From NCBI GenBank assembly GCA_003542615.1, contig DPKG01000014.1:8521-72520 (forward strand): 64,000 nt of DNA. The letters are read 5' to 3'. Shown here piece after piece: positions 3,724-54,753 of this stretch. Source of the DNA: Candidatus Shapirobacteria bacterium. GTDB taxonomy: Bacteria > Patescibacteriota > Microgenomatia > UBA12405. The position numbers and the translations under genes were made by a program. Under the pieces are notes generated by a model, which was given only the letters and a program-made list of their open reading frames with translations, had not been told where the DNA came from and searched no databases. Within the stretch, counting starts at the first letter, position 1. The number at the start of each line of letters is the position of its first letter.

Positions 3724-4672
3724 GATTCAAAGTGAATTGTCTTCAAAAGTTGAAAATATCGCCCAAAAATTAGAATTACGCCAATTAGTCGTTATTCAAT
3801 TTTTAGTGTTGATTTCTTCGAAACTTAGATACACTAGCAGGGGCTTGACAAGAAAATTAGGACTACCACAGGTACATCTTTATAGACTAATTCATGAATT
3901 TTCGGATATTTTAGAACCCAAAGATGTGAACATTGAAACCAAAAAAGATTTGACTGGAGAAATTGCTAATTATGCAAAAAAAATGTTATTAGGAATCAAA
4001 ATTAACCAAAATGCCATTAAAGAAATGATAAATAAATATCAAAAAAATAGACCAAAACCAGACCGCAATTTAGATCAATTCAACGCCACCATGGCAACAA
4101 CGGTTAAAAGAGTTACTAAGTTAGCCAGTAACGGAGACTTAGTCGGCAAAGAAATTGCTTTTTTAGGAGACGATGATTTGGTTTCAATCGGGGTGGCCCT
4201 AACCCATCAATGTAAAAAAATAACAGTTTTCGAAATTGACGACCGATTAAATAATCTTATAATACAAATATCTCAAGAAAATAACTTAAATATTGAAGTG
4301 GTTAAACAGGATCTTCGTCAGCTTATAGATAAAAGTCACTTTGGTAAATACGATCTCGTTTTTACTGATCCTCCTTATACCAAAGGGGGAATTAATTTAT
4401 TTTTAAATCAAGCGATAAAATTAATCAAGAAAAACTTTTTAGGTCGAATTTATCTTTGCTATGGAAATAGTGATCGAGCCAGAGAAAGAGAAGTAGAAAT
4501 TCAAAAACTGATACTTGATCACAATTTAATTATTAAAACAAAACTTAATCAATTTAACAAATATTATGGGGCGGAAAGTATCGGGTCGCAAAGCTCGTTG
4601 TACATTTTAGATTGGACACCGAGTACCAAAACTGTCGAATTAAATTTTAAAAAAGTTTATACAAATGACTAA
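3722..4672 (+). CDS. DUF43/BpsA-like aminopropyltransferase (putative branched-chain polyamine synthase)
   Basis: 'FLGDDDLVSIGVAL' and 'LVFTDPPYTKGG' motifs, N-terminal winged-helix-like extension. The 3' end overlaps an AdoMet decarboxylase gene. Family assignment is from memory of the BpsA motifs and not verified. Confidence 0.45.
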   Translation: MIQSELSSKVENIAQKLELRQLVVIQFLVLISSKLRYTSRGLTRKLGLPQVHLYRLIHEFSDILEPKDVNIETKKDLTGEIANYAKKMLLGIKINQNAIKEMINKYQKNRPKPDRNLDQFNATMATTVKRVTKLASNGDLVGKEIAFLGDDDLVSIGVALTHQCKKITVFEIDDRLNNLIIQISQENNLNIEVVKQDLRQLIDKSHFGKYDLVFTDPPYTKGGINLFLNQAIKLIKKNFLGRIYLCYGNSDRAREREVEIQKLILDHNLIIKTKLNQFNKYYGAESIGSQSSLYILDWTPSTKTVELNFKKVYTND

Positions 4673-5006
4673 TTTCCCTTTTTTTCAACACTATGTTGCC
4701 AAATTAATTTTCACCAAAGAGGTGGAAATTAATGAAAAATTAACTGATCAAATTGCTAATTCATTGATTAAAAACCTTAGATTAAATGTGGTTAAACAAG
4801 GAAAACATCAGTTTACAAATAATGGTTTAACCAAATTTTGGATTTTATCCCAATCACATTTAGTTATCCACTCTTGGCCAGAAAATAACGCTCTTCACGT
4901 CGACTTAATGACCTGTAGTCCAATAGTCATTACTTCAAAAATTATTAAAGACTGTCTTTCTATATTTCCAATAAATGACATCTCTGTGACAAAGCTGAAA
5001 TATTAA
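4665..5006 (+). CDS. speH: S-adenosylmethionine decarboxylase proenzyme, small SpeH class
   Basis: 113 aa; 'SHLVIHSWPENNALHVDLMTCS' matches the AdoMetDC self-processing/active-site region (ESH...TWPE...D.FTC). Confidence 0.7.
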   Translation: MTNFPFFQHYVAKLIFTKEVEINEKLTDQIANSLIKNLRLNVVKQGKHQFTNNGLTKFWILSQSHLVIHSWPENNALHVDLMTCSPIVITSKIIKDCLSIFPINDISVTKLKY

Positions 5007-5048
5007 TCTTTTTTTATACAGTCTCATCAAATCTCATCAACAAACGGT

Positions 5049-5088
5049 GTTATAAGGATAGAAAGGTTCCAGACCCTAATGCTCCGCC
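5049..5088. repeat. conserved ~40-nt intergenic motif, copy 1 (GTTATAAGGATAGAAAGGTTCCAGACCC...CTCCGCC)
   Basis: About 30/38 identity to the copies at 9054 and 16131. Lies between the speH 3' end and a truncated HD-domain ORF. Confidence 0.6.
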
Positions 5089-5094
5089 AAAGGG

Positions 5095-5340
5095 TCAAAG
5101 TTCTATGCGGCCCACTTGGTGGCCAAGCATTGTCCTAACCTGTTGGTGTTTATTCCCTAATTTCAACATTTTTCGATTTAACGGCCTGTGATAGGTGAAT
5201 TTAGCAATTTTTTGGCAATAACTCATTACCCGTATTCCATGGTTTAATCGAAAGCCGTAGCCACCACCAAATTCCCAAACGTTTTGAAAAAGTTGTTTGT
5301 ATTCTGCTTTTAATTTACTTAATAATTCGGTATTTTCCAT
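5095..5340 (-). pseudogene. truncated HD-domain phosphohydrolase (N-terminal ~80 aa only)
   Basis: 'FRLNHGIRVMSYCQKIAK' resembles the first His region of HD domains. The ORF stops before the HD dyad; downstream sequence runs directly into motif copy 1. Confidence 0.4.
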
Positions 5341-5356
5341 ATGTTAAGATCATATC

Positions 5357-5971
5357 ATGAAAGTCTATTTTGTCCGCCATGGTTCCACCGATTCTTTGGA
5401 AAAGAAAATCAGTCAACCGAATGATGAGCCACTAAATCAAAAAGGTCTTAATCAAGCGAAAGGGCTGGCAGAAAGATTTGCAAAAACACAATTAGACTTG
5501 ATTGTTTCGAGTTCTCATCTTCGGGCAGTTCAAACAGCCAAAGCCATAAATGAGGAAATCCAGATTAGTGAATTATTCGTCGAAGTACGAAAACCTAGTG
5601 AGGTAATCGGTCGATCAAAAGAGGATGGAGAAATAAAAGTAATTCTTCAAAGGATAAGTGAAATGTACACCAAAAATCCTAATTGGCATTATTCGGATGA
5701 AGAGAATTTTGAAGATTTGAAAAAGCGGGGAATGCAGGCTTTGGAGTTTTTGAAATCACAGAACAAAGAAAATATTTTAGTAGTTTCTCATGGTCACTTT
5801 GTGGCCTTATTATTAGGGCTGATGTTATTTGGGAAAGAATTTCCGGTTGAGGCAGCTTTACTATTCAGAAATTTTTTTAGATTTGGCAATACCGGAGTGT
5901 CTATTTGTAAATATGAGGATAATAAATGGAAACTGCAGTGTTGGAATGACACATCACACTTACTGGAGTAA
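5357..5971 (+). CDS. histidine phosphatase superfamily protein (phosphoglycerate-mutase-like)
   Basis: N-terminal 'VYFVRHGST' (RHG catalytic motif); C-terminal 'VVSHGHF' second His motif. Confidence 0.7.
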   Translation: MKVYFVRHGSTDSLEKKISQPNDEPLNQKGLNQAKGLAERFAKTQLDLIVSSSHLRAVQTAKAINEEIQISELFVEVRKPSEVIGRSKEDGEIKVILQRISEMYTKNPNWHYSDEENFEDLKKRGMQALEFLKSQNKENILVVSHGHFVALLLGLMLFGKEFPVEAALLFRNFFRFGNTGVSICKYEDNKWKLQCWNDTSHLLE

Positions 5972-8197: not shown

Positions 8198-8269
8198 GCG
8201 CCCATAGTTTAATGGATAGAATAGCGGTTTGCGGAACCGTTGATCCGGGTTCGATTCCTGGTGGGCGCA
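8198..8269 (+). tRNA. tRNA-Arg (anticodon read as GCG; anticodon assignment uncertain)
   Basis: 72 nt cloverleaf: acceptor GCGCCCA/TGGGCGC, T-arm CCGGGTTCGATTCCTGG. The D-arm is nearly identical to the tRNA-Arg(CCG) at 13100. Anticodon loop TTGCGGA. A TATAAT box lies at about 8181. Confidence 0.65.
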
Positions 8270-8299: not shown

Positions 8300-8383
8300 G
8301 GAGGGTTGGCCGAGTGGTTTATGGCGCACGCTTCGAAAGCGTGTGGGCGAAAGCCCGCAGAGGTTCAAATCCTCTACCCTCCG
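8300..8383 (+). tRNA. tRNA-Ser (anticodon CGA)
   Basis: Acceptor GGAGGGT/ACCCTCC, anticodon loop TTCGAAA, long variable arm TGGGCGAAAGCCCGC, T-arm GAGGTTCAAATCCTC. No encoded CCA. Confidence 0.8.
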
Positions 8384-8388
8384 CTAAA

Positions 8389-9060
8389 ATGATAAATCTA
8401 AAAGATAAACTTTCCCACATCATTACTTCAAGGCCAGATGTAATTCAGTTTGCCAAAGACAGGAAGTATGAAGAGGCATGGATTATTAAATTAAGTGACA
8501 AAAAGCCAACTGAAGTAGACATTGAAAGATATTTAAAAAAAGACAAGTTTGAAACGATAATTGTTGAATATATTTGGAATTCCCAAGACGATAATAATCG
8601 GTTTGTTTTGACTTTGTTTCTTGACAAAAAATGTAAACTTCAGGACCCAAAGAAATTTATCGAGATATCGTTAGATCTTTTCTATACTTATTCTAATTTC
8701 GAGGATTTTTTGAACATTATTGATAATCAGATTATTGGATCGGAATATTTACTGTTAAATCAAACTGACTCGATAAATTTAGGTGTTTTTAATTATTGGC
8801 TGTCGGTAGGACCAGTTGATCTATGGAGTAAAAAAGAAATATATGACTTTGAAAAAATTAAATCAAAAATAAAAACACGACCGGAAATTGAAAGAACAGA
8901 TCTAAACTATCAAGGATTGTTGTTTAGGTTTAACGTAAGTGGAATTCTTGATGGTCCTTATTATGGAATTAAAACCCCGTGTTGTAACAAAATTGGAAAT
9001 GATTGGGTGATAGACTTTGATAAAGTTGAATATTGGACTAAATTGATGTTAGGGATATAA
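8389..9060 (+). CDS. hypothetical protein (224 aa) directly abutting tRNA-Ser(CGA)
   Basis: The track ORF 8314-9060 has a false N-terminus that translates the tRNA. The first ATG is 5 nt after the tRNA 3' end. No recognisable domain. Confidence 0.45.
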   Translation: MINLKDKLSHIITSRPDVIQFAKDRKYEEAWIIKLSDKKPTEVDIERYLKKDKFETIIVEYIWNSQDDNNRFVLTLFLDKKCKLQDPKKFIEISLDLFYTYSNFEDFLNIIDNQIIGSEYLLLNQTDSINLGVFNYWLSVGPVDLWSKKEIYDFEKIKSKIKTRPEIERTDLNYQGLLFRFNVSGILDGPYYGIKTPCCNKIGNDWVIDFDKVEYWTKLMLGI

Positions 9061-9092
9061 GGATAGAAAAGTTCCAAACTCATCTACTCCGC
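9054..9092. repeat. conserved ~40-nt motif, copy 2
   Basis: GATATAAGGATAGAAAAGTTCCAAACTCATCTACTCCGC; overlaps the stop codon of the 8389-9060 gene. Confidence 0.6.
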
Positions 9093-15405: not shown

Positions 15406-15492
15406 AGGAGGGGTCGGATAGTGGTTCATTCCACACGCTTGGAAAGCGTGCGCTGTAAAAAGCTCGCGGGTTCGAATCCCGCCCCCTCCGCC
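15406..15492 (+). tRNA. tRNA-Ser (anticodon GGA), CCA encoded
   Basis: Acceptor GGAGGGG/CCCCTCC, anticodon loop CTTGGAA, long variable arm, T-arm GCGGGTTCGAATCCCGC, 3' GCCA. Confidence 0.8.
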
Positions 15493-16131
15493 ATGCCAAA
15501 TAAAGATGTCTGGGAAATTACAAGTGCAATAATTCTTTCCTTTGGTGGCTCCAGCGTAATCTTGATTGGGTTAAGCACTTGGTTGGGTAAAGTGTGGGCA
15601 AACAGATTACTCGAAAAAGACAGGCTCAAATACAATTCTGAACTTGAAACAACAAAGGCAAAATATGAAAAACAGTTGGAAACATACAAACTCCAGCTTG
15701 AGAAATCCAAATCTTTGTTCTTTAGGTATTCTGAACATCAGTTCACCCTCTATAACGAATTATGGAGGCTTCTTTATAAGTTGAAGTTATTAGTAAATGA
15801 ATTGTGGGACCAGGCAAATTTTAAAAATTTAAGAGCATTTGCTCTTCACTTTGAAAAGACTATCGACTCTGTTGAAAAGCACAGCTTACTAATTGAGGAT
15901 AAACATCACGATAAGTTAAATGCAATTTTTAACACTCTCAACAAATTTAAAGTCAATAAAGAAACTATTGTTAAACTAAAAGATATAAAGGAAGAGGATA
16001 TCAAGCCAGACCACAATTCAGACACTATTCCTCGTTATGTTGCACAAAATAATGAATCAAAAAAACAGTTTGAAGCTCTACTTAAAATACTCGAGAGAGA
16101 TTTTAAGAAGCAAATTCGAGTGACTGGGTAG
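15493..16131 (+). CDS. hypothetical membrane-anchored coiled-coil protein directly abutting tRNA-Ser(GGA)
   Basis: The track ORF 15421-16131 has a false N-terminus covering the tRNA. The ATG overlaps the encoded CCA end of the tRNA (start within ~1 nt of 15492). N-terminal TM helix then a Lys/Glu-rich helical region. Confidence 0.45.
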   Translation: MPNKDVWEITSAIILSFGGSSVILIGLSTWLGKVWANRLLEKDRLKYNSELETTKAKYEKQLETYKLQLEKSKSLFFRYSEHQFTLYNELWRLLYKLKLLVNELWDQANFKNLRAFALHFEKTIDSVEKHSLLIEDKHHDKLNAIFNTLNKFKVNKETIVKLKDIKEEDIKPDHNSDTIPRYVAQNNESKKQFEALLKILERDFKKQIRVTG

Positions 16132-16170
16132 TTATAAGGGTAGAAAGGATCCAGACCCACCTACCCCGCC
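16131..16170. repeat. conserved ~40-nt motif, copy 3
   Basis: GTTATAAGGGTAGAAAGGATCCAGACCCACCTACCCCGCC; contains the inverted repeat GGGTAG...CTACCC; overlaps the stop codon of the preceding gene. Confidence 0.6.
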
Positions 16171-18864: not shown

Positions 18865-21657
18865 TTAGGGTAAATTCCGTTCAATAAAATCCTGACTGAT
18901 CCAGCCTTCAACATTGATTCTGGTGAGAATCACTTTGACCCAACGTTTGGTCTCAACTAAAATTTCAGCCGTTTGATCTTGAGTTAGTTTGTGGGTGACA
19001 CTGGAATTAAAGGAAGGTTTGGAATAAAGATAGACAGTGTCGTAACTGGGAACACGGATATTAATTTTTGAAAGAGGGGCACTGGAGCTGGAGGGAGCGG
19101 GAGATTGAATTTCCTGGACCAGGAGGCTGAGTATCCAGCCCTGAGTTGAATCATAAGAAGTCTGTAGCCATTTTTCGCCTAAATCGTTGTATTTTTCGGA
19201 ATAAATAGGAATTTCTATGCCGGAGGGAATGGTGGTAATTAAAACGGAATTGCTGTCGGGTTGACTGCGAAGGTTGATTTTATTACCGTTGGTAGGGGCA
19301 ATAATGACTTTTTTAAGAATAGAAAGGGTGGGAGTCGGAGTTTGGGTGGGGGTAATTTGAGGAGTATTGGTGGGTTCTTGCGGGGGTTTTGTGGGAGATG
19401 GTTCGGTTTTCTGTGAAGGGGTGGGGGTAGCATCTGTAGTGGCAGAAAGGACAGAAGGGAGAATGGCAGATTTTTGGGGTCGGCTTTGAAAAATTTGGTA
19501 AGTAACAGAAGAAGATAAACCAAAAGAAAGCCCTACTATGGCGGCAATAGTAATTCCTCGATGAATTTTGGGAGAAGCACGGGGTTTGGTGGGAGGGGGA
19601 ATACCATTGTCTTGGGGTTGGCTTGGGGGAGCTTGAGAAGTGGAATAAACGGGAGGAGTAATGAGAGAAGGTGGGGTGGGTTTGGGGGGGGTGAGAGATC
19701 TAATGTAAATTGCCAGGAAAGCAAAGCCGGCCACAAGTACTATAATAATACCCCAAACCGATATGGCCTGAACTCCCCCGATGAAGCCGGAAAGGGTACC
19801 GATGGATCCGGCGGATGAAACTATGGTTTTTAGGCTCTCGAGATTGCGGTTGACTGAATCAAGTTCAATTTTGGTTTCATAATAGCCTATGATTTTGTCT
19901 TCCGGGAGTTTGGCTTGTTTTTGGAGAATTGTTATTTTGTCAAGGGAGGCAAGGATATTTGAGTGGAGGGTGGTACCTTGGGCAAAATATGAGGTATTTT
20001 TGAGGGGAGCAAAAAGTTCATCAGCCTGTTTTTTGAGGGAGTCAATTTTTTCTTGAGGAATAGTCCAAATATCTTCAACTTGAACTTCAAGAATGATGGT
20101 TCCTCCCGGTTTTAGGGTGATATCTGCAGAGGCATAATAGACAGATTTGGTGGCGTCAAATTTTATTTCTAATTCAGGAGATTTTTTAATAATATTTTCC
20201 TGTTTTACTTCTGAGGGGAAATAATAAAGATAAGGAACTGTTTGAGTGGAAGTTTTAGAAGGATTGGTAATTAAACTTTTGAAGATGATACTGCCTTCTT
20301 CAAGCCAGGAGGTGATGATGGGTTTACTGACAACTGTTTCGAGTAGGGTGCGGTTGGTACTAAGGAGTGCCTTCATAGCCAAAACCTGGTTCATAAGTTC
20401 AGAAAGATCGGTATTTTGGGTAATATTGTTGTTGGTAATGTTTTCGACATTGGAAACAGAGTTAATGGCAGCGATATCGGTAGAGAGATCTTTGACCTTG
20501 TCGTAAATATCGGTAGCAGAAAGACTCCCCCATTTTTCAAGTAAATCATTAAGGTCGAGAGTACTATTGTCGATGGCTTCGATGGCTTCTTTGACCTGTT
20601 GGATACGGCCAAAAATTGAAGCAGTGTTTGAGGTGTCGGAGGTAGAACCGATTGAATTTTCAATGGAGTCTACATAAGCCTTGAGAGTGATGATTTCATC
20701 GTAGGCGGTAGTTGATTTGCCATTGAAATTTAACTCGGAACGGAGGGCGGTAGCAGTGGTGTAAGCGCCATTGGCGGCATTGTAGATGGTAGAGGCAGAA
20801 TTGGTGCCCCATTTATCGATAAGACACTGGACCTGACCAAAAACAGAGTCGTCGGTGCAGGTTTGGGTATTGTTGCCTAATTCTGATTCAAGAGAGTCAA
20901 TATAATTTAAAATATCGGTAACACTATAAGTACTCCATTTGGCTAGAATATTGTCGGTGTTGGTCTGAATGGTGGTGACTGAAGTTTGGAGAGAATCGAC
21001 TTTGGAATCGATGGTGACGAGATCATTTTGAACTGAGGTAAGCTGAAGAGAGATATCGGAAAGACTGGTGCCGACGGAATTGACGGTGTCGGTGGTGGCA
21101 AGGGTGGCACCGTTGTCGAGAGTTGGAGAAGAGAGGGTTTTGGAGGTGTGTCCCCAGATATCACTAACCAAAGTACCAAATCCAGAGAGAGAACGATCAG
21201 AATAAGTCCAGATTTCCTGGACAATATTTCCAAAGGAACTGATAGTGCGGTTATCGTAACTCCAAACTGATTCGGCGGTATCTTGGGTAATAGTAAAGCT
21301 TTTGTCCAGACACATATAGCCATCAATGGTAGTACAACAAATTTGGCTACGGTATAAACCAAGTGGTTGACCGGAGGTGCCGATATCGTAGGAATACCAA
21401 CCGTCAGCGGAGGGGGGAAGTGTAGCGGAATTAATAAATACGGTACCATCCGGATAACGAGCGGTAAGAGTACAGTCAGCATCGGCTACGGGAACATATT
21501 CATCGTTGAAAAGAAATTCACCAACGATACAATCAGCAGTATTGGTACATTGCTGATATTCTCCGGGGGCGGCAGATACGGGAAAGGCCGGGACCAAAAA
21601 AAAGATCCCGGCTAAAAGAATTTTTAGCCATTTGCAATATTTTGTTACCGTCTTCAT
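18865..21657 (-). CDS. large surface protein: signal peptide, Cys-rich N-domain, helical region, TM anchor, Pro/Thr-rich linker, two C-terminal SH3b-like domains
   Basis: 930 aa; N-terminal 'LVPAFPVSAAP' signal; TM 'WGIIIVLVAGFAFLAIYI'; 'PTPTPSQKTEPSPTKPPQEPTNTPQITPTQTPTPT' linker; two ~60-aa SH3b-like repeats ending in W-rich motifs. Confidence 0.6.
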   Translation of the reverse strand: MKTVTKYCKWLKILLAGIFFLVPAFPVSAAPGEYQQCTNTADCIVGEFLFNDEYVPVADADCTLTARYPDGTVFINSATLPPSADGWYSYDIGTSGQPLGLYRSQICCTTIDGYMCLDKSFTITQDTAESVWSYDNRTISSFGNIVQEIWTYSDRSLSGFGTLVSDIWGHTSKTLSSPTLDNGATLATTDTVNSVGTSLSDISLQLTSVQNDLVTIDSKVDSLQTSVTTIQTNTDNILAKWSTYSVTDILNYIDSLESELGNNTQTCTDDSVFGQVQCLIDKWGTNSASTIYNAANGAYTTATALRSELNFNGKSTTAYDEIITLKAYVDSIENSIGSTSDTSNTASIFGRIQQVKEAIEAIDNSTLDLNDLLEKWGSLSATDIYDKVKDLSTDIAAINSVSNVENITNNNITQNTDLSELMNQVLAMKALLSTNRTLLETVVSKPIITSWLEEGSIIFKSLITNPSKTSTQTVPYLYYFPSEVKQENIIKKSPELEIKFDATKSVYYASADITLKPGGTIILEVQVEDIWTIPQEKIDSLKKQADELFAPLKNTSYFAQGTTLHSNILASLDKITILQKQAKLPEDKIIGYYETKIELDSVNRNLESLKTIVSSAGSIGTLSGFIGGVQAISVWGIIIVLVAGFAFLAIYIRSLTPPKPTPPSLITPPVYSTSQAPPSQPQDNGIPPPTKPRASPKIHRGITIAAIVGLSFGLSSSVTYQIFQSRPQKSAILPSVLSATTDATPTPSQKTEPSPTKPPQEPTNTPQITPTQTPTPTLSILKKVIIAPTNGNKINLRSQPDSNSVLITTIPSGIEIPIYSEKYNDLGEKWLQTSYDSTQGWILSLLVQEIQSPAPSSSSAPLSKINIRVPSYDTVYLYSKPSFNSSVTHKLTQDQTAEILVETKRWVKVILTRINVEGWISQDFIERNLP

Positions 21658-21810: not shown

Positions 21811-21969
21811 TTATTTTTTATTTTCTTCTTTGCCGGAAAAAGCTTTACGGAATTCTTTAATGGCATCACCAATTCCACGACCTAATTCAGGTAATTTTTT
21901 ACCGCCGAAAAGGAAGAGCAAGACGACGGCAATGATTATGAGCTCAGTTGAGCCAATATTTCTAAACAT
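21811..21969 (-). CDS. tatA: TatA/E family protein, copy A (52 aa), not in ORF track
   Basis: Manual translation MFRNIGSTELIIIAVVLLFLFGGKKLPELGRGIGDAIKEFRKAF...: N-terminal TM helix plus the 'FGxKKLPE' TatA signature and an amphipathic helix. Confidence 0.65.
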   Translation of the reverse strand: MFRNIGSTELIIIAVVLLFLFGGKKLPELGRGIGDAIKEFRKAFSGKEENKK

Positions 21970-22011
21970 TGGTGCCTCCTAGTTAATTAATAAAGAGTTT
22001 GATAGTGTTTG

Positions 22012-22146
22012 TTAGCTTTTTAGAGACTTTTTGATCTCTTTGATGGCTTCAGCAATACCCTTTGAAAGTTCCGGCAACTTACTTCCACCGAAAAGGAAGA
22101 GGAGTATAACTCCAGCTAGTATTAATTCGGGTGTTCCTATATTCAT
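22012..22146 (-). CDS. tatA: TatA/E family protein, copy B (44 aa), not in ORF track
   Basis: MNIGTPELILAGVILLFLFGGSKLPELSKGIAEAIKEIKKSLKS. Confidence 0.6.
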   Translation of the reverse strand: MNIGTPELILAGVILLFLFGGSKLPELSKGIAEAIKEIKKSLKS

Positions 22147-22164
22147 AATTGTTGTTTTGCCTCC

Positions 22165-22896
22165 TTAACTTATCTTAATTGAGTTTTTTAGATTTGCAAT
22201 AGGATAAAGACTTTTTTGAGGATTAAAAAGTAAGGTCCCTTCAAACAATAAAGCCAAGGGAACAAAGATTAGAGACATGGATAAAATATCGGTGGGAGGT
22301 AAAAGAATATCAAAAATTAAAAGACCGGCATATACGTATTTACGTTGAGCAGTGAGAATATTTCTGTCAATAACACCGAGACGAAGTAAAATTGTTAAAA
22401 AGATGGGAAGTTCGAAAACAATTGCCATACAGGTACCCATGACTACAACCTGGGTCAAAAAAGCTTCAATGTCCCAAAAATTACCGATATTAAATTTCTG
22501 ACTGGTATTGACGTAGATGTCGATGACAAACTGGAGGATACGAACACCAAAAATAAAACCGGCAATAAAAAGAATTATACTGATAGGTAGAAGTTTGGTA
22601 ATAAGACGAAATTCATGAGGACGAAGAGCGGGTTTGATAAATCCCAGAAGTTCATAAATTAAAAGCGGTCCGGCAAAAATAATGCCGGAAAGAATACTAA
22701 TGCTAATAGCCAGATTGATGAATTGGTAGGGCGAAACCAGGACGATATTAATATTTTCGAGGTTAAAAATAGAAATAAGACTTGTGATTATCCAACGATT
22801 TTTGACAGCACCAAAAATAACACCAATAACAAAGGCAAGAGCGACCTTAAAAACTTTTGACCGGATCTCGTTTAGATAATGGTCGAATTGGGGCAC
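22165..22896 (-). CDS. tatC: Sec-independent protein translocase TatC
   Basis: 243 aa, 6 TM; N-terminal 'HYLNEIRSKV' (TatC LxEHLxELR region), 'FELPIF', 'LLPPTDILSMS' (TatC LLTPPD motif). GTG start. Confidence 0.7.
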   Translation of the reverse strand: MPQFDHYLNEIRSKVFKVALAFVIGVIFGAVKNRWIITSLISIFNLENINIVLVSPYQFINLAISISILSGIIFAGPLLIYELLGFIKPALRPHEFRLITKLLPISIILFIAGFIFGVRILQFVIDIYVNTSQKFNIGNFWDIEAFLTQVVVMGTCMAIVFELPIFLTILLRLGVIDRNILTAQRKYVYAGLLIFDILLPPTDILSMSLIFVPLALLFEGTLLFNPQKSLYPIANLKNSIKIS

Positions 22897-22898
22897 AT

Positions 22899-23054
22899 TT
22901 ATTTCTTGTTACCCTGATCTTCGAAGCCTTTACGAAATTCTTTGACTGCGTCACCAATTCCACGGCTTAATTCGGGTAATTTTTTACCGCCGAAAAGAAG
23001 GAGCAGGATAAGACCTAATATGATTAATTCTGTGGTTCCGATGTTGCTGAACAT
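22899..23054 (-). CDS. tatA: TatA/E family protein, copy C (51 aa), not in ORF track
   Basis: MFSNIGTTELIILGLILLLLFGGKKLPELSRGIGDAVKEFRKGF... Confidence 0.65.
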   Translation of the reverse strand: MFSNIGTTELIILGLILLLLFGGKKLPELSRGIGDAVKEFRKGFEDQGNKK

Positions 23055-23070
23055 AAATTTGAATTAAATT

Positions 23071-23205
23071 TTAATTTTTGAGAGCTTTTTTAAATTCTTT
23101 TATGGATTGAACAATGCCACGGGTAAGTTCAGGAAGTTTTCGGTCGCCGAAAAGGATGAGTAAGATTATACCTAATAAAATTAATTCGTTGGTACCGATT
23201 CTCAT
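23071..23205 (-). CDS. tatA: TatA/E family protein, copy D (44 aa), not in ORF track
   Basis: MRIGTNELILLGIILLILFGDRKLPELTRGIVQSIKEFKKALKN; ATGA overlap with copy E. Confidence 0.6.
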   Translation of the reverse strand: MRIGTNELILLGIILLILFGDRKLPELTRGIVQSIKEFKKALKN

Positions 23206-23384
23206 GATTCGTCCTCTTTGTTGATGTCTTTTTTAACGTCTTTAAGTTCTTTATTGATGTTTTTGAGTTCTTTTCCGGCTTGACCGGCACCTTTGGCTAA
23301 TTCACTGACTTTTTTACCACCAAAAAGAAGAAGTAAAATAAGGAGAAAAATAAGAATTTCGGTAAGGCCAATATTATTGAACAT
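23202..23384 (-). CDS. tatA: TatA/E family protein, copy E (60 aa)
   Basis: The track ORF 23202-23420 is trimmed to the internal Met 'MFNNIGLTEILIFLLILLLLFGGKKVSELAKGAG', which gives the TatA signature. Confidence 0.6.
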   Translation of the reverse strand: MFNNIGLTEILIFLLILLLLFGGKKVSELAKGAGQAGKELKNINKELKDVKKDINKEDES

Positions 23385-23428
23385 ATAAGGAATCTTAAAT
23401 ATAAAACGACAAAAGTTCAAGTAGCAAA

Positions 23429-54054: not shown

Positions 54055-54753
54055 TTAAAAACCGGGGATTTTGATTTTGATGGTGGGGATTTTGAACATG
54101 ATGAGGGTGGGAGTCGGAGTGGGAGTGGAAGTGGGCATTTTGATGATCAGATTCGGATTAATTTGAAAGACGGAAGGATTGACAAGAGAGGTGGGTTTGG
54201 GGGTGGGAGTCGGAGGGGAGGCGGTGGGATTCTGGGTGGGAGAGGCGGTGTCGTACCAGTCGTGAGGGAGAATGTCGTCTTGAACGGAGTTGGCGGTGAC
54301 CAGGACCGGGATTTTGGCGTGGGAAGGACAGGAATATTGCAGACCGCAGGTGACGAATTCAGTGTAATAGGCTTTTTGATCGTCAAGATAGGAATAAACA
54401 TAGTATTCCCCGGGGTCGAGTTCCATTTGATAGCCGACACCGTTTTTAAATTTTTGGTCTTTAATTTGAGGAGTACAAACGACATTTTGAAGATCGCTAA
54501 TTTTTTGGGCACAGACTCCAAGGCCAGGGGGGATAAATGAAGAAGGGTAAATAAGATAGCCGCTGATGGTACCCTGATCGGAGGCGGAAGTTGGAGATAT
54601 ATTGGAAGGTGTGGGGGTAACTGAGGTAGAGTTGGAGTTGTCTGAAGGAGGTTTTTTGAGTTTGATAGCAATAAGAGTGCCGGCGGAGAGAAAAAGAAAA
54701 GTTATGAGTAGGATCAGGGGAAGGGTGATGCCTTTTTGAAAAAAAGGTTTCAT
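54055..54753 (-). CDS. secreted protein with Pro/Thr-rich segments (232 aa)
   Basis: Signal peptide; 'TPTPSNISPTSAS' and 'PTPTPKPTS...TPTPTPT' tracts. Confidence 0.45.
   Translation of the reverse strand: MKPFFQKGITLPLILLITFLFLSAGTLIAIKLKKPPSDNSNSTSVTPTPSNISPTSASDQGTISGYLIYPSSFIPPGLGVCAQKISDLQNVVCTPQIKDQKFKNGVGYQMELDPGEYYVYSYLDDQKAYYTEFVTCGLQYSCPSHAKIPVLVTANSVQDDILPHDWYDTASPTQNPTASPPTPTPKPTSLVNPSVFQINPNLIIKMPTSTPTPTPTLIMFKIPTIKIKIPGF

What the first reader, a model, noticed from the sequence alone, without database searches (positions are those of the whole stretch)
5049..5340. Third motif copy sits at a gene-truncation boundary (HD-domain fragment)
The HD-domain ORF (5095-5340, minus strand) stops after ~80 aa, well before the HD dyad. 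The sequence beyond its stop is the 40-nt motif (5049-5088). The three copies share GGrTAG ... CTAcyCC inverted-repeat potential; in copy 3 it is perfect (GGGTAG-17 nt-CTACCC). A conserved element at a truncation point suggests it marks a recombination or insertion boundary (att-like, or a small mobile unit) and is not just a terminator.
Basis: partly seen in the sequence, partly recalled or inferred. Interest (0 to 1): 0.5.

Follow-up and report, generated by a model that had tools for sequence, protein, structure and literature searches.

The report
tRNA-Ser-end mimic beside decayed HD gene
The 81-codon "HD" reading frame is the dead front end of a roughly 220-residue enzyme gene, and the 40-base motif next to it belongs to a repeat family that resembles the end of serine-tRNA genes and marks where small gene cassettes have been inserted after those tRNAs in this group of ultra-small bacteria.

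Summary
The window comes from Candidatus Shapirobacteria (CPR). The ORF at 5095-5340(-) is a truncated pseudogene. Only residues 1-47 match an HD family whose full length is about 215-225 aa, and the 33-residue tail is unrelated.

The breakpoint is not at the motif. It lies at about 5196-5199, which is the far edge of a 107-nt module R (5090-5196). R lies directly after a genuine tRNA-Ser(gct) gene in two other genomes, so it is that tRNA's native 3' flank.

The motif M (5049-5089) sits exactly where the tRNA 3' end would be. It ends in CTCCGCCA and is 46-56% identical, without gaps, to tRNA-Ser 3' ends. In this genome the real tRNA-Ser(gct) lies 9.7 kb upstream on the same strand.

The other two copies (9056, 16131) each close a single-gene insertion placed directly after tRNA-Ser(cga) or tRNA-Ser(gga). 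A related genome has the empty tRNA-Ser(cga) site, with the same 31-nt flank. Across 43 non-redundant copies, every M with a tRNA-Ser upstream is co-oriented with it (17/17). No recombinase gene was found.

So M is an att-like boundary of inserted DNA, and this copy sits at a synteny breakpoint. The HD gene was lost by a separate deletion that ends at R's edge. The "perfect" inverted repeat belongs to the 16133 copy, not to this one.

The parts
5197..5340 (-). True remnant of the HD-family gene (codons 1-48)
   Evidence: The profile of 38 full-length relatives aligns residues 1-47 at 50.9 bits, and adding the tail adds nothing. Identity to P0002 and P0003 is 51-55%. The family is about 215-225 aa long.
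5095..5340 (-). Annotated 81-aa ORF (hypothetical protein A2574_01815), made of the HD N-terminus plus a 33-residue tail read from the antisense of R. The stop codon TGA is at 5095-5097.
   Evidence: R copies in other genomes carry stop codons in this frame, shown directly by the sequences.
5090..5196 (+). Module R, the conserved 3' flank of tRNA-Ser(gct) (AAAGGGTCAAAGTTCTATGCG...GCCTGTGATAGG)
   Evidence: R is 72-82% identical in L022, L012, L024, L019, L038, L027 and L018. In L022 and L024 it starts directly after the CCA of a genuine tRNA-Ser(gct). Only one hairpin is conserved and there is no covariation. Its right end coincides with the end of HD homology.
5049..5089 (+). Motif M, copy 1 (leader-bearing type): GTTATAAGGATAGAAAGGTTCCAGACCCTAATGCTCCGCCA
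   Evidence: nhmmer E=2.7e-15. It is identical to the copy in L011. It occupies the position of the tRNA-Ser(gct) 3' end relative to R. Orthology with L023 ends at its 3' end.
5008..5048 (+). Shortened leader module L (CTTTTTTTATACAGTCTCATCAAATCTCATCAACAAACGGT)
   Evidence: It aligns with the ~80-nt leader that precedes 20 of 43 M copies elsewhere. The orthologous short form follows AdoMetDC in L023.
4665..5006 (+). AdoMetDC gene, the last gene of the 9.7-kb block between tRNA-Ser(gct) and L-M-R (context)
   Evidence: Pfam PF02675, E=2e-15. Block order comes from L040.
8300..8384 (+). tRNA-Ser(cga), the platform for the cassette ending in M copy 2
   Evidence: ARAGORN and Rfam.
8385..9092 (+). 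708-nt insertion made of one 223-aa ORF (8389-9060) plus M copy 2 (9056-9092). The ORF's stop codon lies inside M.
   Evidence: L012 has tRNA-Ser(cga)..CCGC followed directly by the same 31-nt flank (23/31 identical) and the Ferric_reduct gene. In the window that flank follows M's CCGC.
15407..15493 (+). tRNA-Ser(gga), the platform for the cassette ending in M copy 3
15493..16170 (+). 212-aa ORF (its ATG overlaps the tRNA's CCA) plus M copy 3 (16131-16170). This copy holds the perfect GGGTAG/CTACCC repeat.
   Evidence: L007, L009 and L015 show the same arrangement of tRNA-Ser(gga), variable ORF(s) and M.

Best explanation
Window 5008-5340 is a junction of four unrelated pieces.

(1) L-M (5008-5089) is a promoter-like leader plus a 41-nt mimic of the 3' end of a serine tRNA gene.

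(2) R (5090-5196) is the native downstream flank of the tRNA-Ser(gct) gene.

(3) The first 48 codons of an HD-family phosphohydrolase gene (5197-5340, minus strand) lie next to R. Its remaining ~170 codons were deleted up to the edge of R.

(4) The fusion leaves an open frame that runs 33 codons through the antisense of R and stops 5 nt before M. This is the annotated 81-aa 'protein'.

M is the recombination-site-like 3' boundary of DNA inserted after the ...CTCCGC end of tRNA-Ser genes. An insertion leaves tRNA...CCGC | cargo ... M...CCGC | old flank.

In this genome, 9.7 kb now separates tRNA-Ser(gct) from its old flank R, with L-M at the distal joint. That joint has the layout of an attR. 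Single-gene cassettes ending in M follow tRNA-Ser(cga) and tRNA-Ser(gga).

Shown: the anatomy, the positional equivalence of M and the tRNA end, the empty and occupied sites, the co-orientation, and the synteny break at M.

Inferred: that the joints are made by site-specific recombination by an enzyme encoded elsewhere, and that the HD loss was a later, ordinary deletion limited by selection on R.
For: HD remnant:
- Only residues 1-47 match the family profile.
- Relatives are 215-225 aa.
- No frame continues the homology.

R as the tRNA flank:
- L022 and L024 read ...TTCCGCCA|AAGGGTCAAAG directly after tRNA-Ser(gct).
- In L012, three M-terminated segments lie between that tRNA and R.
- In the window's own genome (L040), tRNA-Ser(gct) lies 9.7 kb upstream on the same strand.

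Empty versus occupied tRNA-Ser(cga) site:
- The same 31-nt flank follows the tRNA's CCGC in L012 and M's CCGC in the window.

M family:
- 43 non-redundant copies were found in CPR contigs, and 17 of 17 with a tRNA-Ser upstream are co-oriented with it.
- M is colinear with tRNA-Ser 3' ends at 19-23 of 41 positions, above most shuffles.
- Leaderless copies sit 0-26 nt after a co-oriented stop codon in 12 of 23 cases.

Other support:
- Orthology between the window and L023 (AdoMetDC-L-M) ends at M's 3' end.
- L018 and L033 share L-M and the downstream gene but differ by the presence of R.
- Cargo is varied: NUDIX, His_Phos_1, PNP_UDP, a kinase, a phosphodiesterase, an LD-carboxypeptidase and unknowns.
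- The window's cassette protein family sits in unrelated neighbourhoods elsewhere, once after tRNA-Ser(gga) plus a degenerate M.
- L012 has an intact HD relative convergent on R.
- That tRNA-gene fragments arise from integration is established knowledge (PMC9897764).
Against: - No tyrosine or serine recombinase, IntI, RAYT or IS200-type gene was detected by tblastn in 384 kb of held sequence, which includes redundant copies, or by Pfam among 10 cargo proteins. These were single-sequence searches of limited sensitivity.
- M matches nothing in the phage, plasmid or viral collections.
- Similarity of M to real tRNA-Ser ends is modest, and neither ARAGORN nor the Rfam tRNA model sees M.
- The 5' 26 nt of M are nearly invariant across species. 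That is unexpected for a decaying scar and points to an unidentified ongoing function.
- The 9.7-kb block between tRNA-Ser(gct) and L-M-R contains housekeeping genes (SHMT, KsgA, QueC). It is therefore more likely a flank exchange or rearrangement between sites than a foreign island.
- The L012 HD gene is only 34% identical to the remnant.
- Only one clean empty/occupied pair was obtained per tRNA site.
Confidence: 0.6

Rival explanations
1. M is an RNA-level element. It would be a small tRNA-end-like hairpin in the 3' UTR that directs processing or stabilises the transcript, and it travels with genes only because it is part of their transcription unit.
For: - Leaderless copies lie 0-26 nt after co-oriented stop codons.
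- A two-stem hairpin (G8-C37) is kept in 95% of cells, against 29-55% for the slid controls, and two pairs show compensatory changes.
- The near-invariant loop sequence suggests sequence-specific recognition.
- The ending CCGCCA resembles a tRNA 3' end.
Against: - It does not explain why the old tRNA flank reappears exactly after M's CCGC, why R follows either the tRNA or M, or why orthology stops at M.
- Predicted folding is no better than shuffled sequence.
- No Rfam family matches.
- Leader-bearing copies are often preceded by divergent genes.
- This reading is not exclusive of the att reading. Integron attC sites also follow stop codons.
Confidence: 0.2
2. M (with L and R) is a selfish modular intergenic repeat, like REP/BIME, BOX or a MITE, spread by a transposase encoded elsewhere. 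Its association with tRNA-Ser would be target preference or coincidence.
For: - The modules combine freely (L+M, M alone, M+R, R alone after the tRNA).
- M is a short imperfect hairpin.
- A separate 20-nt palindrome (CCTGCCTGCCGGCAGGCAGG) is inserted in two copies.
- No recombinase gene is adjacent.
Against: - Copy density is low, with 3 in 64 kb, all downstream of tRNA-Ser genes.
- There are no terminal inverted repeats or target duplications.
- The insertions carry whole genes, not the repeat alone.
- R was seen once per contig and is explained as a tRNA flank.
- No RAYT or IS200 homologue was found.
Confidence: 0.1
3. One reading: the 40-nt motif, as a small mobile unit, inserted into the HD gene and truncated it at the motif.
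For: The motif lies 5 nt beyond the stop codon. The gene is truncated.
Against: - HD homology ends about 107 nt before the motif, at the edge of R.
- No C-terminal HD fragment exists on the other side in any frame. AdoMetDC ends at 5006.
- AdoMetDC-L-M is orthologous in L023, which has no HD gene nearby.
Confidence: 0.04
4. The 81-aa product is a genuine short HD-like protein.
For: The ORF is intact and identical in many assemblies. Other short family members exist, at 55-112 aa.
Against: - It lacks the HD dyad and all downstream metal ligands.
- Its tail has no homology and is encoded by the antisense of a conserved non-coding module that carries stop codons in other genomes.
- The other short members have unrelated tails or are frameshifted. 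L001 continues in another frame.
Confidence: 0.03

Closest known systems
attL/attR repeats of integrative elements that target the 3' end of tRNA genes (genomic islands, P4-like prophages; tRNA gene fragments as integration scars)
   Same: - A copy of the tRNA 3' region lies downstream of, and co-oriented with, an intact tRNA gene.
- Variable DNA lies between the two.
- The old tRNA flank is displaced to the far side.
- Serial insertions give arrays.
   Different: - No integrase gene lies in or near the inserted DNA.
- Insertions are often a single small gene of about 0.7 kb.
- The repeat is not a near-identical duplicate of the local tRNA end. It is a family-wide consensus that is 46-56% identical to it, with an almost invariant 5' half.
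- A second kind of platform (L-M) can replace the tRNA.
Integron cassette arrays (attI plus attC-terminated cassettes)
   Same: - Compact, mostly single-ORF, co-oriented cassettes.
- Each cassette ends in a short conserved foldable site right after the stop codon.
- An upstream platform supplies a promoter.
- The cassettes carry no recombinase.
   Different: - No intI gene was found.
- M is about 41 nt and lacks the R''/L''-L'/R' architecture and the GTTRRRY box.
- The platform is a tRNA-Ser gene or L-M, not attI.
Xer-dependent dif/pdif modules (Acinetobacter plasmids, IMEX elements)
   Same: Small gene modules bounded by short conserved sites and moved by a recombinase encoded elsewhere.
   Different: M has no XerC/XerD half-site dyad around a 6-nt spacer. 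Copies are in direct, not alternating, orientation. M is associated with tRNA genes.
REP/BIME and BOX-type modular intergenic repeats
   Same: Short imperfect hairpins after genes, with modular combination with other small units (L, R and a 20-nt palindrome).
   Different: Copy density is low, the link to tRNA-Ser genes is strict, and the repeat bounds gene-sized insertions.
HD-domain phosphohydrolases (PF01966), ~220-aa Microgenomates subfamily
   Same: Residues 1-47 align well, including GGGYGFR.NHG with the first metal-binding His.
   Different: The HD dyad and the C-terminal 170 residues are missing, so it is a pseudogene fragment.

Membership tests
tRNA-targeting integrative element att repeat | The repeat corresponds to the 3' part of a tRNA gene | tested here: inconclusive
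   M is colinear without gaps and ends CTCCGCC(A), like tRNA-Ser. Identity is 19-23 of 41 positions, with shuffle p of 0.0015-0.053. Positional equivalence with the tRNA-Ser(gct) end before R is exact. ARAGORN and Rfam do not recognise M.
tRNA-targeting integrative element att repeat | The repeat lies downstream of, and co-oriented with, an intact copy of that tRNA | tested here: met
   17 of 17 copies with a tRNA-Ser on the contig are co-oriented. Window copy 1 has tRNA-Ser(gct) 9.7 kb upstream.
tRNA-targeting integrative element att repeat | The intervening DNA is absent from the same site in relatives, with the flank conserved | tested here: met
   L012 is empty and the window is occupied at tRNA-Ser(cga), with the same 31-nt flank. 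L022 and L024 are empty and L012 is occupied at tRNA-Ser(gct)|R.
tRNA-targeting integrative element att repeat | An integrase gene lies within the element | tested here: not met
   tblastn with XerD, Hin, IntI1, RAYT and IS608 TnpA gave no hit in 384 kb. Pfam of 10 cargo proteins found no recombinase. Sensitivity was limited.
Integron | An intI gene next to attI, and attC with R''/L''-L'/R' and GTTRRRY | tested here: not met
   There is no IntI1 homologue. The M sequence lacks complementary R boxes.
Integron | Co-oriented single-ORF cassettes, each ending in the site | tested here: met
Intrinsic terminator | A G+C-rich hairpin followed by a U-run | tested here: not met
   No terminator-like site was found in 4600-5600. 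No T-run follows any of the three copies.
tRNA or tRNA pseudogene | A cloverleaf recognised by tRNA models | tested here: not met
   ARAGORN finds 4 tRNAs, none at M. Rfam in E-value mode on 4900-5400 gives no tRNA hit.
REP/RAYT | High-copy extragenic palindromes with a conserved GTAG, plus a RAYT gene | tested here: inconclusive
   A hairpin is present. GTAG/CTAC occurs in only 2 of 29 copies. There are 3 copies in 64 kb. No RAYT was found in the held sequence, and the whole genome was not available.
MITE/IS | Terminal inverted repeats and a target-site duplication | tested here: not met
   No convincing TIR was found by eye between the ends of L and R in the alignments. The junctions show only the shared CTCCGC.
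HD domain (PF01966) | The H...HD...D metal-binding motifs | tested here: not met
   There is no Pfam hit. Only the first His region is present, and the profile match stops at residue 47.

The most novel reading that the evidence does not exclude
In Microgenomates (CPR) genomes, tRNA-Ser genes and L-M 'pseudo-tRNA' modules would act as platforms of an integron-like gene-cassette system. Compact cassettes, often a single gene and mostly nucleotide-housekeeping enzymes or unknowns, would each carry a 41-nt foldable mimic of the tRNA-Ser 3' end. A recombinase encoded elsewhere would insert, excise and shuffle them between the three tRNA-Ser loci. This would be a cassette-capture system outside the integron family, in bacteria with very small genomes.
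Probability: 0.3. Interest if true: 0.75.

Novelty: new variant of a known kind. Interest (0 to 1): 0.5.

Why it matters
For annotation, A2574_01815 and similar short 'HD' proteins are pseudogene fragments. ORFs are also being called through tRNA-Ser genes; for example, the 248-aa form P0061 is 25 aa longer than the 223-aa ORF.

For biology, CPR bacteria have tiny genomes and poorly understood routes of gene gain. A conserved tRNA-Ser-end mimic that bounds variable single-gene insertions at three tRNA-Ser loci, and that sits at synteny breakpoints, points to a specific, testable mechanism of accessory-gene turnover and genome rearrangement in this lineage. It also provides a 41-nt probe for finding such cassettes in metagenomes.

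Tried and rejected
- **Frameshift rescue of the HD gene.** No frame continues the homology.
- **R as a relic of HD coding sequence.** tblastn extended an alignment into R and the tail reads LGHQVGRIE against LFHDIGKIE. I rejected this because the family profile gains nothing from the tail, and R copies elsewhere have stop codons in that frame.
- **R or L-M as a known or structured RNA.** No Rfam family matches. R has one invariant hairpin and no covariation. The L hairpin is conserved but nearly invariant.
- **M's 3' part as a hybrid derived from the local tRNA.** This fits copy 2 (CTAC, as in tRNA-Ser(cga)). It does not fit L024 or L009, whose copies keep the family consensus TGCTCCGCC.
- **L024 as a two-cassette version of the same tRNA-Ser(cga)|Ferric_reduct site.** The gene after its last M is not the orthologue.
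- **Recombinase searches.** Searches for a linked recombinase and for M in phage, plasmid and viral collections were all negative.
- **Literature.** Searches found no description of this element in CPR.

Full report
**Source and observation.** The 81-aa product of 5095-5340(-) is 100% identical to hypothetical protein A2574_01815 of Candidatus Shapirobacteria bacterium RIFOXYD1_FULL_38_32, a CPR/Microgenomates genome. The ORF and the motif exist as described. The motif has three copies in the 64-kb window, at 5051-5087, 9056-9092 and 16133-16169. All are on the + strand, against 0.00 expected in shuffles. Two details of the finding are wrong. The perfect GGGTAG-17-CTACCC belongs to the 16133 copy, whereas the copy at 5049 reads GGATAG...TAATGCTCC. 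Also, the ORF itself gives no Pfam HD hit.

**The HD gene is truncated, but not at the motif.**
- The first ~46 residues are 51-55% identical to two HD-domain proteins.
- An exhaustive profile search shows that the family is normally 215-225 aa (P0004-P0007 and many others). It also has several other short, decayed members. P0002 itself is frameshifted, because tblastn continues in another frame.
- A profile of 38 full-length relatives matches window residues 1-47 at 50.9 bits and gains nothing from the rest.
- No other frame continues the homology.
- Homology therefore ends at window 5197-5200, about 107 nt from the motif.

**What lies between the motif and the breakpoint.** Scanning public collections with the motif core gave 5 genome loci and 28 metagenome loci, all CPR-like, and none in viral contigs. 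Alignment of these loci resolves window 5008-5196 into three modules.
- L is a leader. Elsewhere it is about 80 nt and contains TTTTTTATACT and repeated GTCTCATTT units. In the window it is a short form.
- M is the motif, 5049-5089.
- R is 5090-5196, reading AAAGGGTCAAAGTTCTATGCG...GCCTGTGATAGG.
- R's right end is sharp, because the sequence beyond it differs in every genome. In the window it coincides, within 3 nt, with the end of HD homology.
- The 33-residue tail and the stop codon of the ORF are read from the antisense of R. R copies elsewhere have stop codons in that frame, so R is not HD-derived.

**The key result is what precedes R elsewhere.** In L022 and L024, R begins directly after the CCA of a genuine tRNA-Ser(gct) gene (...GGGGGTTCGACTCCCCCTCCTTCCGCCA|AAGGGTCAAAG). 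In the window and in L018, L019 and L038, M occupies that position, ending ...GCTCCGCCA|AAGGGTC. M is colinear without gaps with the variable-arm, T-arm and acceptor 3' strand of tRNA-Ser genes, at 19-23 of 41 positions. This is modestly above shuffles. No tRNA model recognises M.

In L012, three M-terminated segments lie between tRNA-Ser(gct) and R. Extending the window's own genome to the left (L040) places tRNA-Ser(gct) 9.7 kb upstream on the same strand. It is followed by the block running from the 106-aa gene through Vut1, QueC, carbamoyltransferase, GT2, SHMT, KsgA and BpsA to AdoMetDC, and then by L-M-R. L-M|R therefore has the layout of a distal, attR-type joint.

**The other two copies show the same thing at single-gene scale.** tRNA-Ser(cga) (8300-8384) is followed after 4 nt by a 223-aa ORF whose stop codon lies inside M copy 2. 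tRNA-Ser(gga) (15407-15493) is followed by a 212-aa ORF whose ATG overlaps the CCA, and then by M copy 3.

L012 has the empty tRNA-Ser(cga) site. There...CCCTCCGC is followed by a 31-nt spacer and the Ferric_reduct gene. In the window the same 31-nt spacer (23/31 identical) and the same gene follow M's ...CTACTCCGC. The inserted unit is therefore 8385-9092, which is 708 nt of cargo plus M. Only CTCCGC is shared at both joints.

**Family-wide picture.**
- There are 43 non-redundant M copies, 20 with L and 23 without.
- 17 copies have a tRNA-Ser gene upstream on the contig, and all 17 are co-oriented with it.
- Copies within one array share orientation.
- Leaderless copies usually sit 0-26 nt after a co-oriented stop codon. 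Leader-bearing copies are often preceded by a divergent gene, which fits L supplying a promoter.
- Cargo is varied: NUDIX, His_Phos_1, PNP_UDP, a P-loop kinase, a phosphodiesterase, an LD-carboxypeptidase and unknowns.
- The window's 223-aa cassette protein belongs to a widespread Microgenomates family that sits in unrelated neighbourhoods in four other genomes. In L045 it follows tRNA-Ser(gga), an 89-aa ORF and a degenerate M.
- M can fold into a two-stem hairpin that is kept in 95% of cells, against 29-55% in the slid controls, with two compensatory pairs. Predicted stability is not better than shuffles.

**M as a breakpoint at this locus.** L023 is syntenic with the window through KsgA(-), BpsA and AdoMetDC and a short L-M. 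Similarity stops at M's 3' end (window 5087). The window continues with R and the HD remnant, while L023 continues with an unrelated gene. L018 and L033 share L-M and the downstream gene but differ by the presence of R. In L027, R follows the tRNA-Ser(cga) array instead. Flanks have therefore been exchanged at tRNA-Ser and M sites.

**How the HD gene was lost.** L012 has an intact 216-aa family member convergent on R, separated from it by a 92-aa ORF. In L024, the region to the right of R also carries minus-strand genes: an HD_4 gene by similarity to the L001 gene, two NUDIX genes by similarity to L005 genes, and a longer relative of the window's 5976-6497 gene. An HD gene facing R therefore looks ancestral. 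The simplest account is a deletion that removed codons ~49-220 and the spacer, ending at the edge of R. This is an inference. No C-terminal HD fragment lies on the other side of L-M-R, so insertion into the gene is excluded.

**Mechanism and limits.** The joints have the form expected of site-specific integration at a tRNA 3' end: platform...CCGC | cargo...M...CCGC | old flank. That this process leaves tRNA gene fragments is established (PMC9897764). However, no recombinase was found in 384 kb of held sequence. M is also absent from the phage, plasmid and viral collections. The near-invariant 5' half of M implies an ongoing function that I could not identify. It could be a recombination site, an RNA element, or both. 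M is not a terminator and not a known RNA family. Three literature searches found no description of this system in CPR bacteria.

**Verdict.** The pseudogene is ordinary. The motif is more interesting than a terminator. It is a tRNA-Ser-end mimic that bounds inserted DNA, often a single gene, and marks synteny breaks. It works like an att or attC site, but without the defining integrase, so I do not file it as an integron or as a classical island att site.

Noticed in passing
L026 ~8240-8260 (inside the leader) and L027 ~2165-2185 (between a degenerate tRNA-end copy and R): The same 20-nt perfect palindrome, CCTGCCTGCCGGCAGGCAGG, is inserted at two unrelated places in two contigs. It may be a miniature mobile palindrome.
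   Followed up: no
window 21811-23420: The 127-nt repeat families D1 and D2 are five paralogous small genes (44-72 aa). From the sequence motif (M..IG..EL....LLFGGKKLPEL), recalled rather than tested, I read them as TatA/E-like. They flank a 243-aa gene that I read as tatC-like (22165-22896, minus strand).
   Followed up: partly
window 8314-9060 and 15421-16131; protein P0061 (248 aa): Mechanical and public ORF calls start at GTG inside the tRNA-Ser genes and read through them. The real cassette ORFs start at 8389 and 15493, which is 4 nt and 0 nt after the tRNA end, with no room for a ribosome-binding site.
   Followed up: partly
L001 4001-4656; L005 4001-4324: The closest HD relatives are themselves decayed. 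In L001 the gene continues in another frame (tblastn 3992-4393 and then 4381-4656). In L005 it stops at 107 aa, just before two DNA methyltransferase genes. Other family members are 55-83 aa fragments with unrelated tails.
   Followed up: partly
L040 19780-19888 (the window genome, left of the window): About 105 nt lie between tRNA-Ser(gct) and an R-like start (AAAGGGTCAAAGATAAAATTC). They begin with a hairpin module (TACGTTCGCCGGAGC..GCGAAGG) that is also seen after M in L012, L021 and L026, and they end in ..ATCCTCC. This may be a decayed cassette.
   Followed up: no
L018 5862-5963 (-): A SAM-I/IV riboswitch (44.7 bits, above the gathering score) lies just upstream of a 366-aa gene at 4772-5872(-), which I read as metK from its N-terminus (untested).
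   Followed up: no
window 19326-19359, 54105-54138, 54201-54234: A G-rich repeat, GGGTGGGAGTCGGAG..., occurs three times (family D4). I did not examine it.
   Followed up: no
window 5357-5971 and L007 7275-7892: In L007 a His_Phos_1 gene is a cassette flanked by L-M and M. In the window a His_Phos_1 gene lies just beyond the HD remnant with no M after it. The region to the right of R may be an old, eroded cassette array.
   Followed up: no
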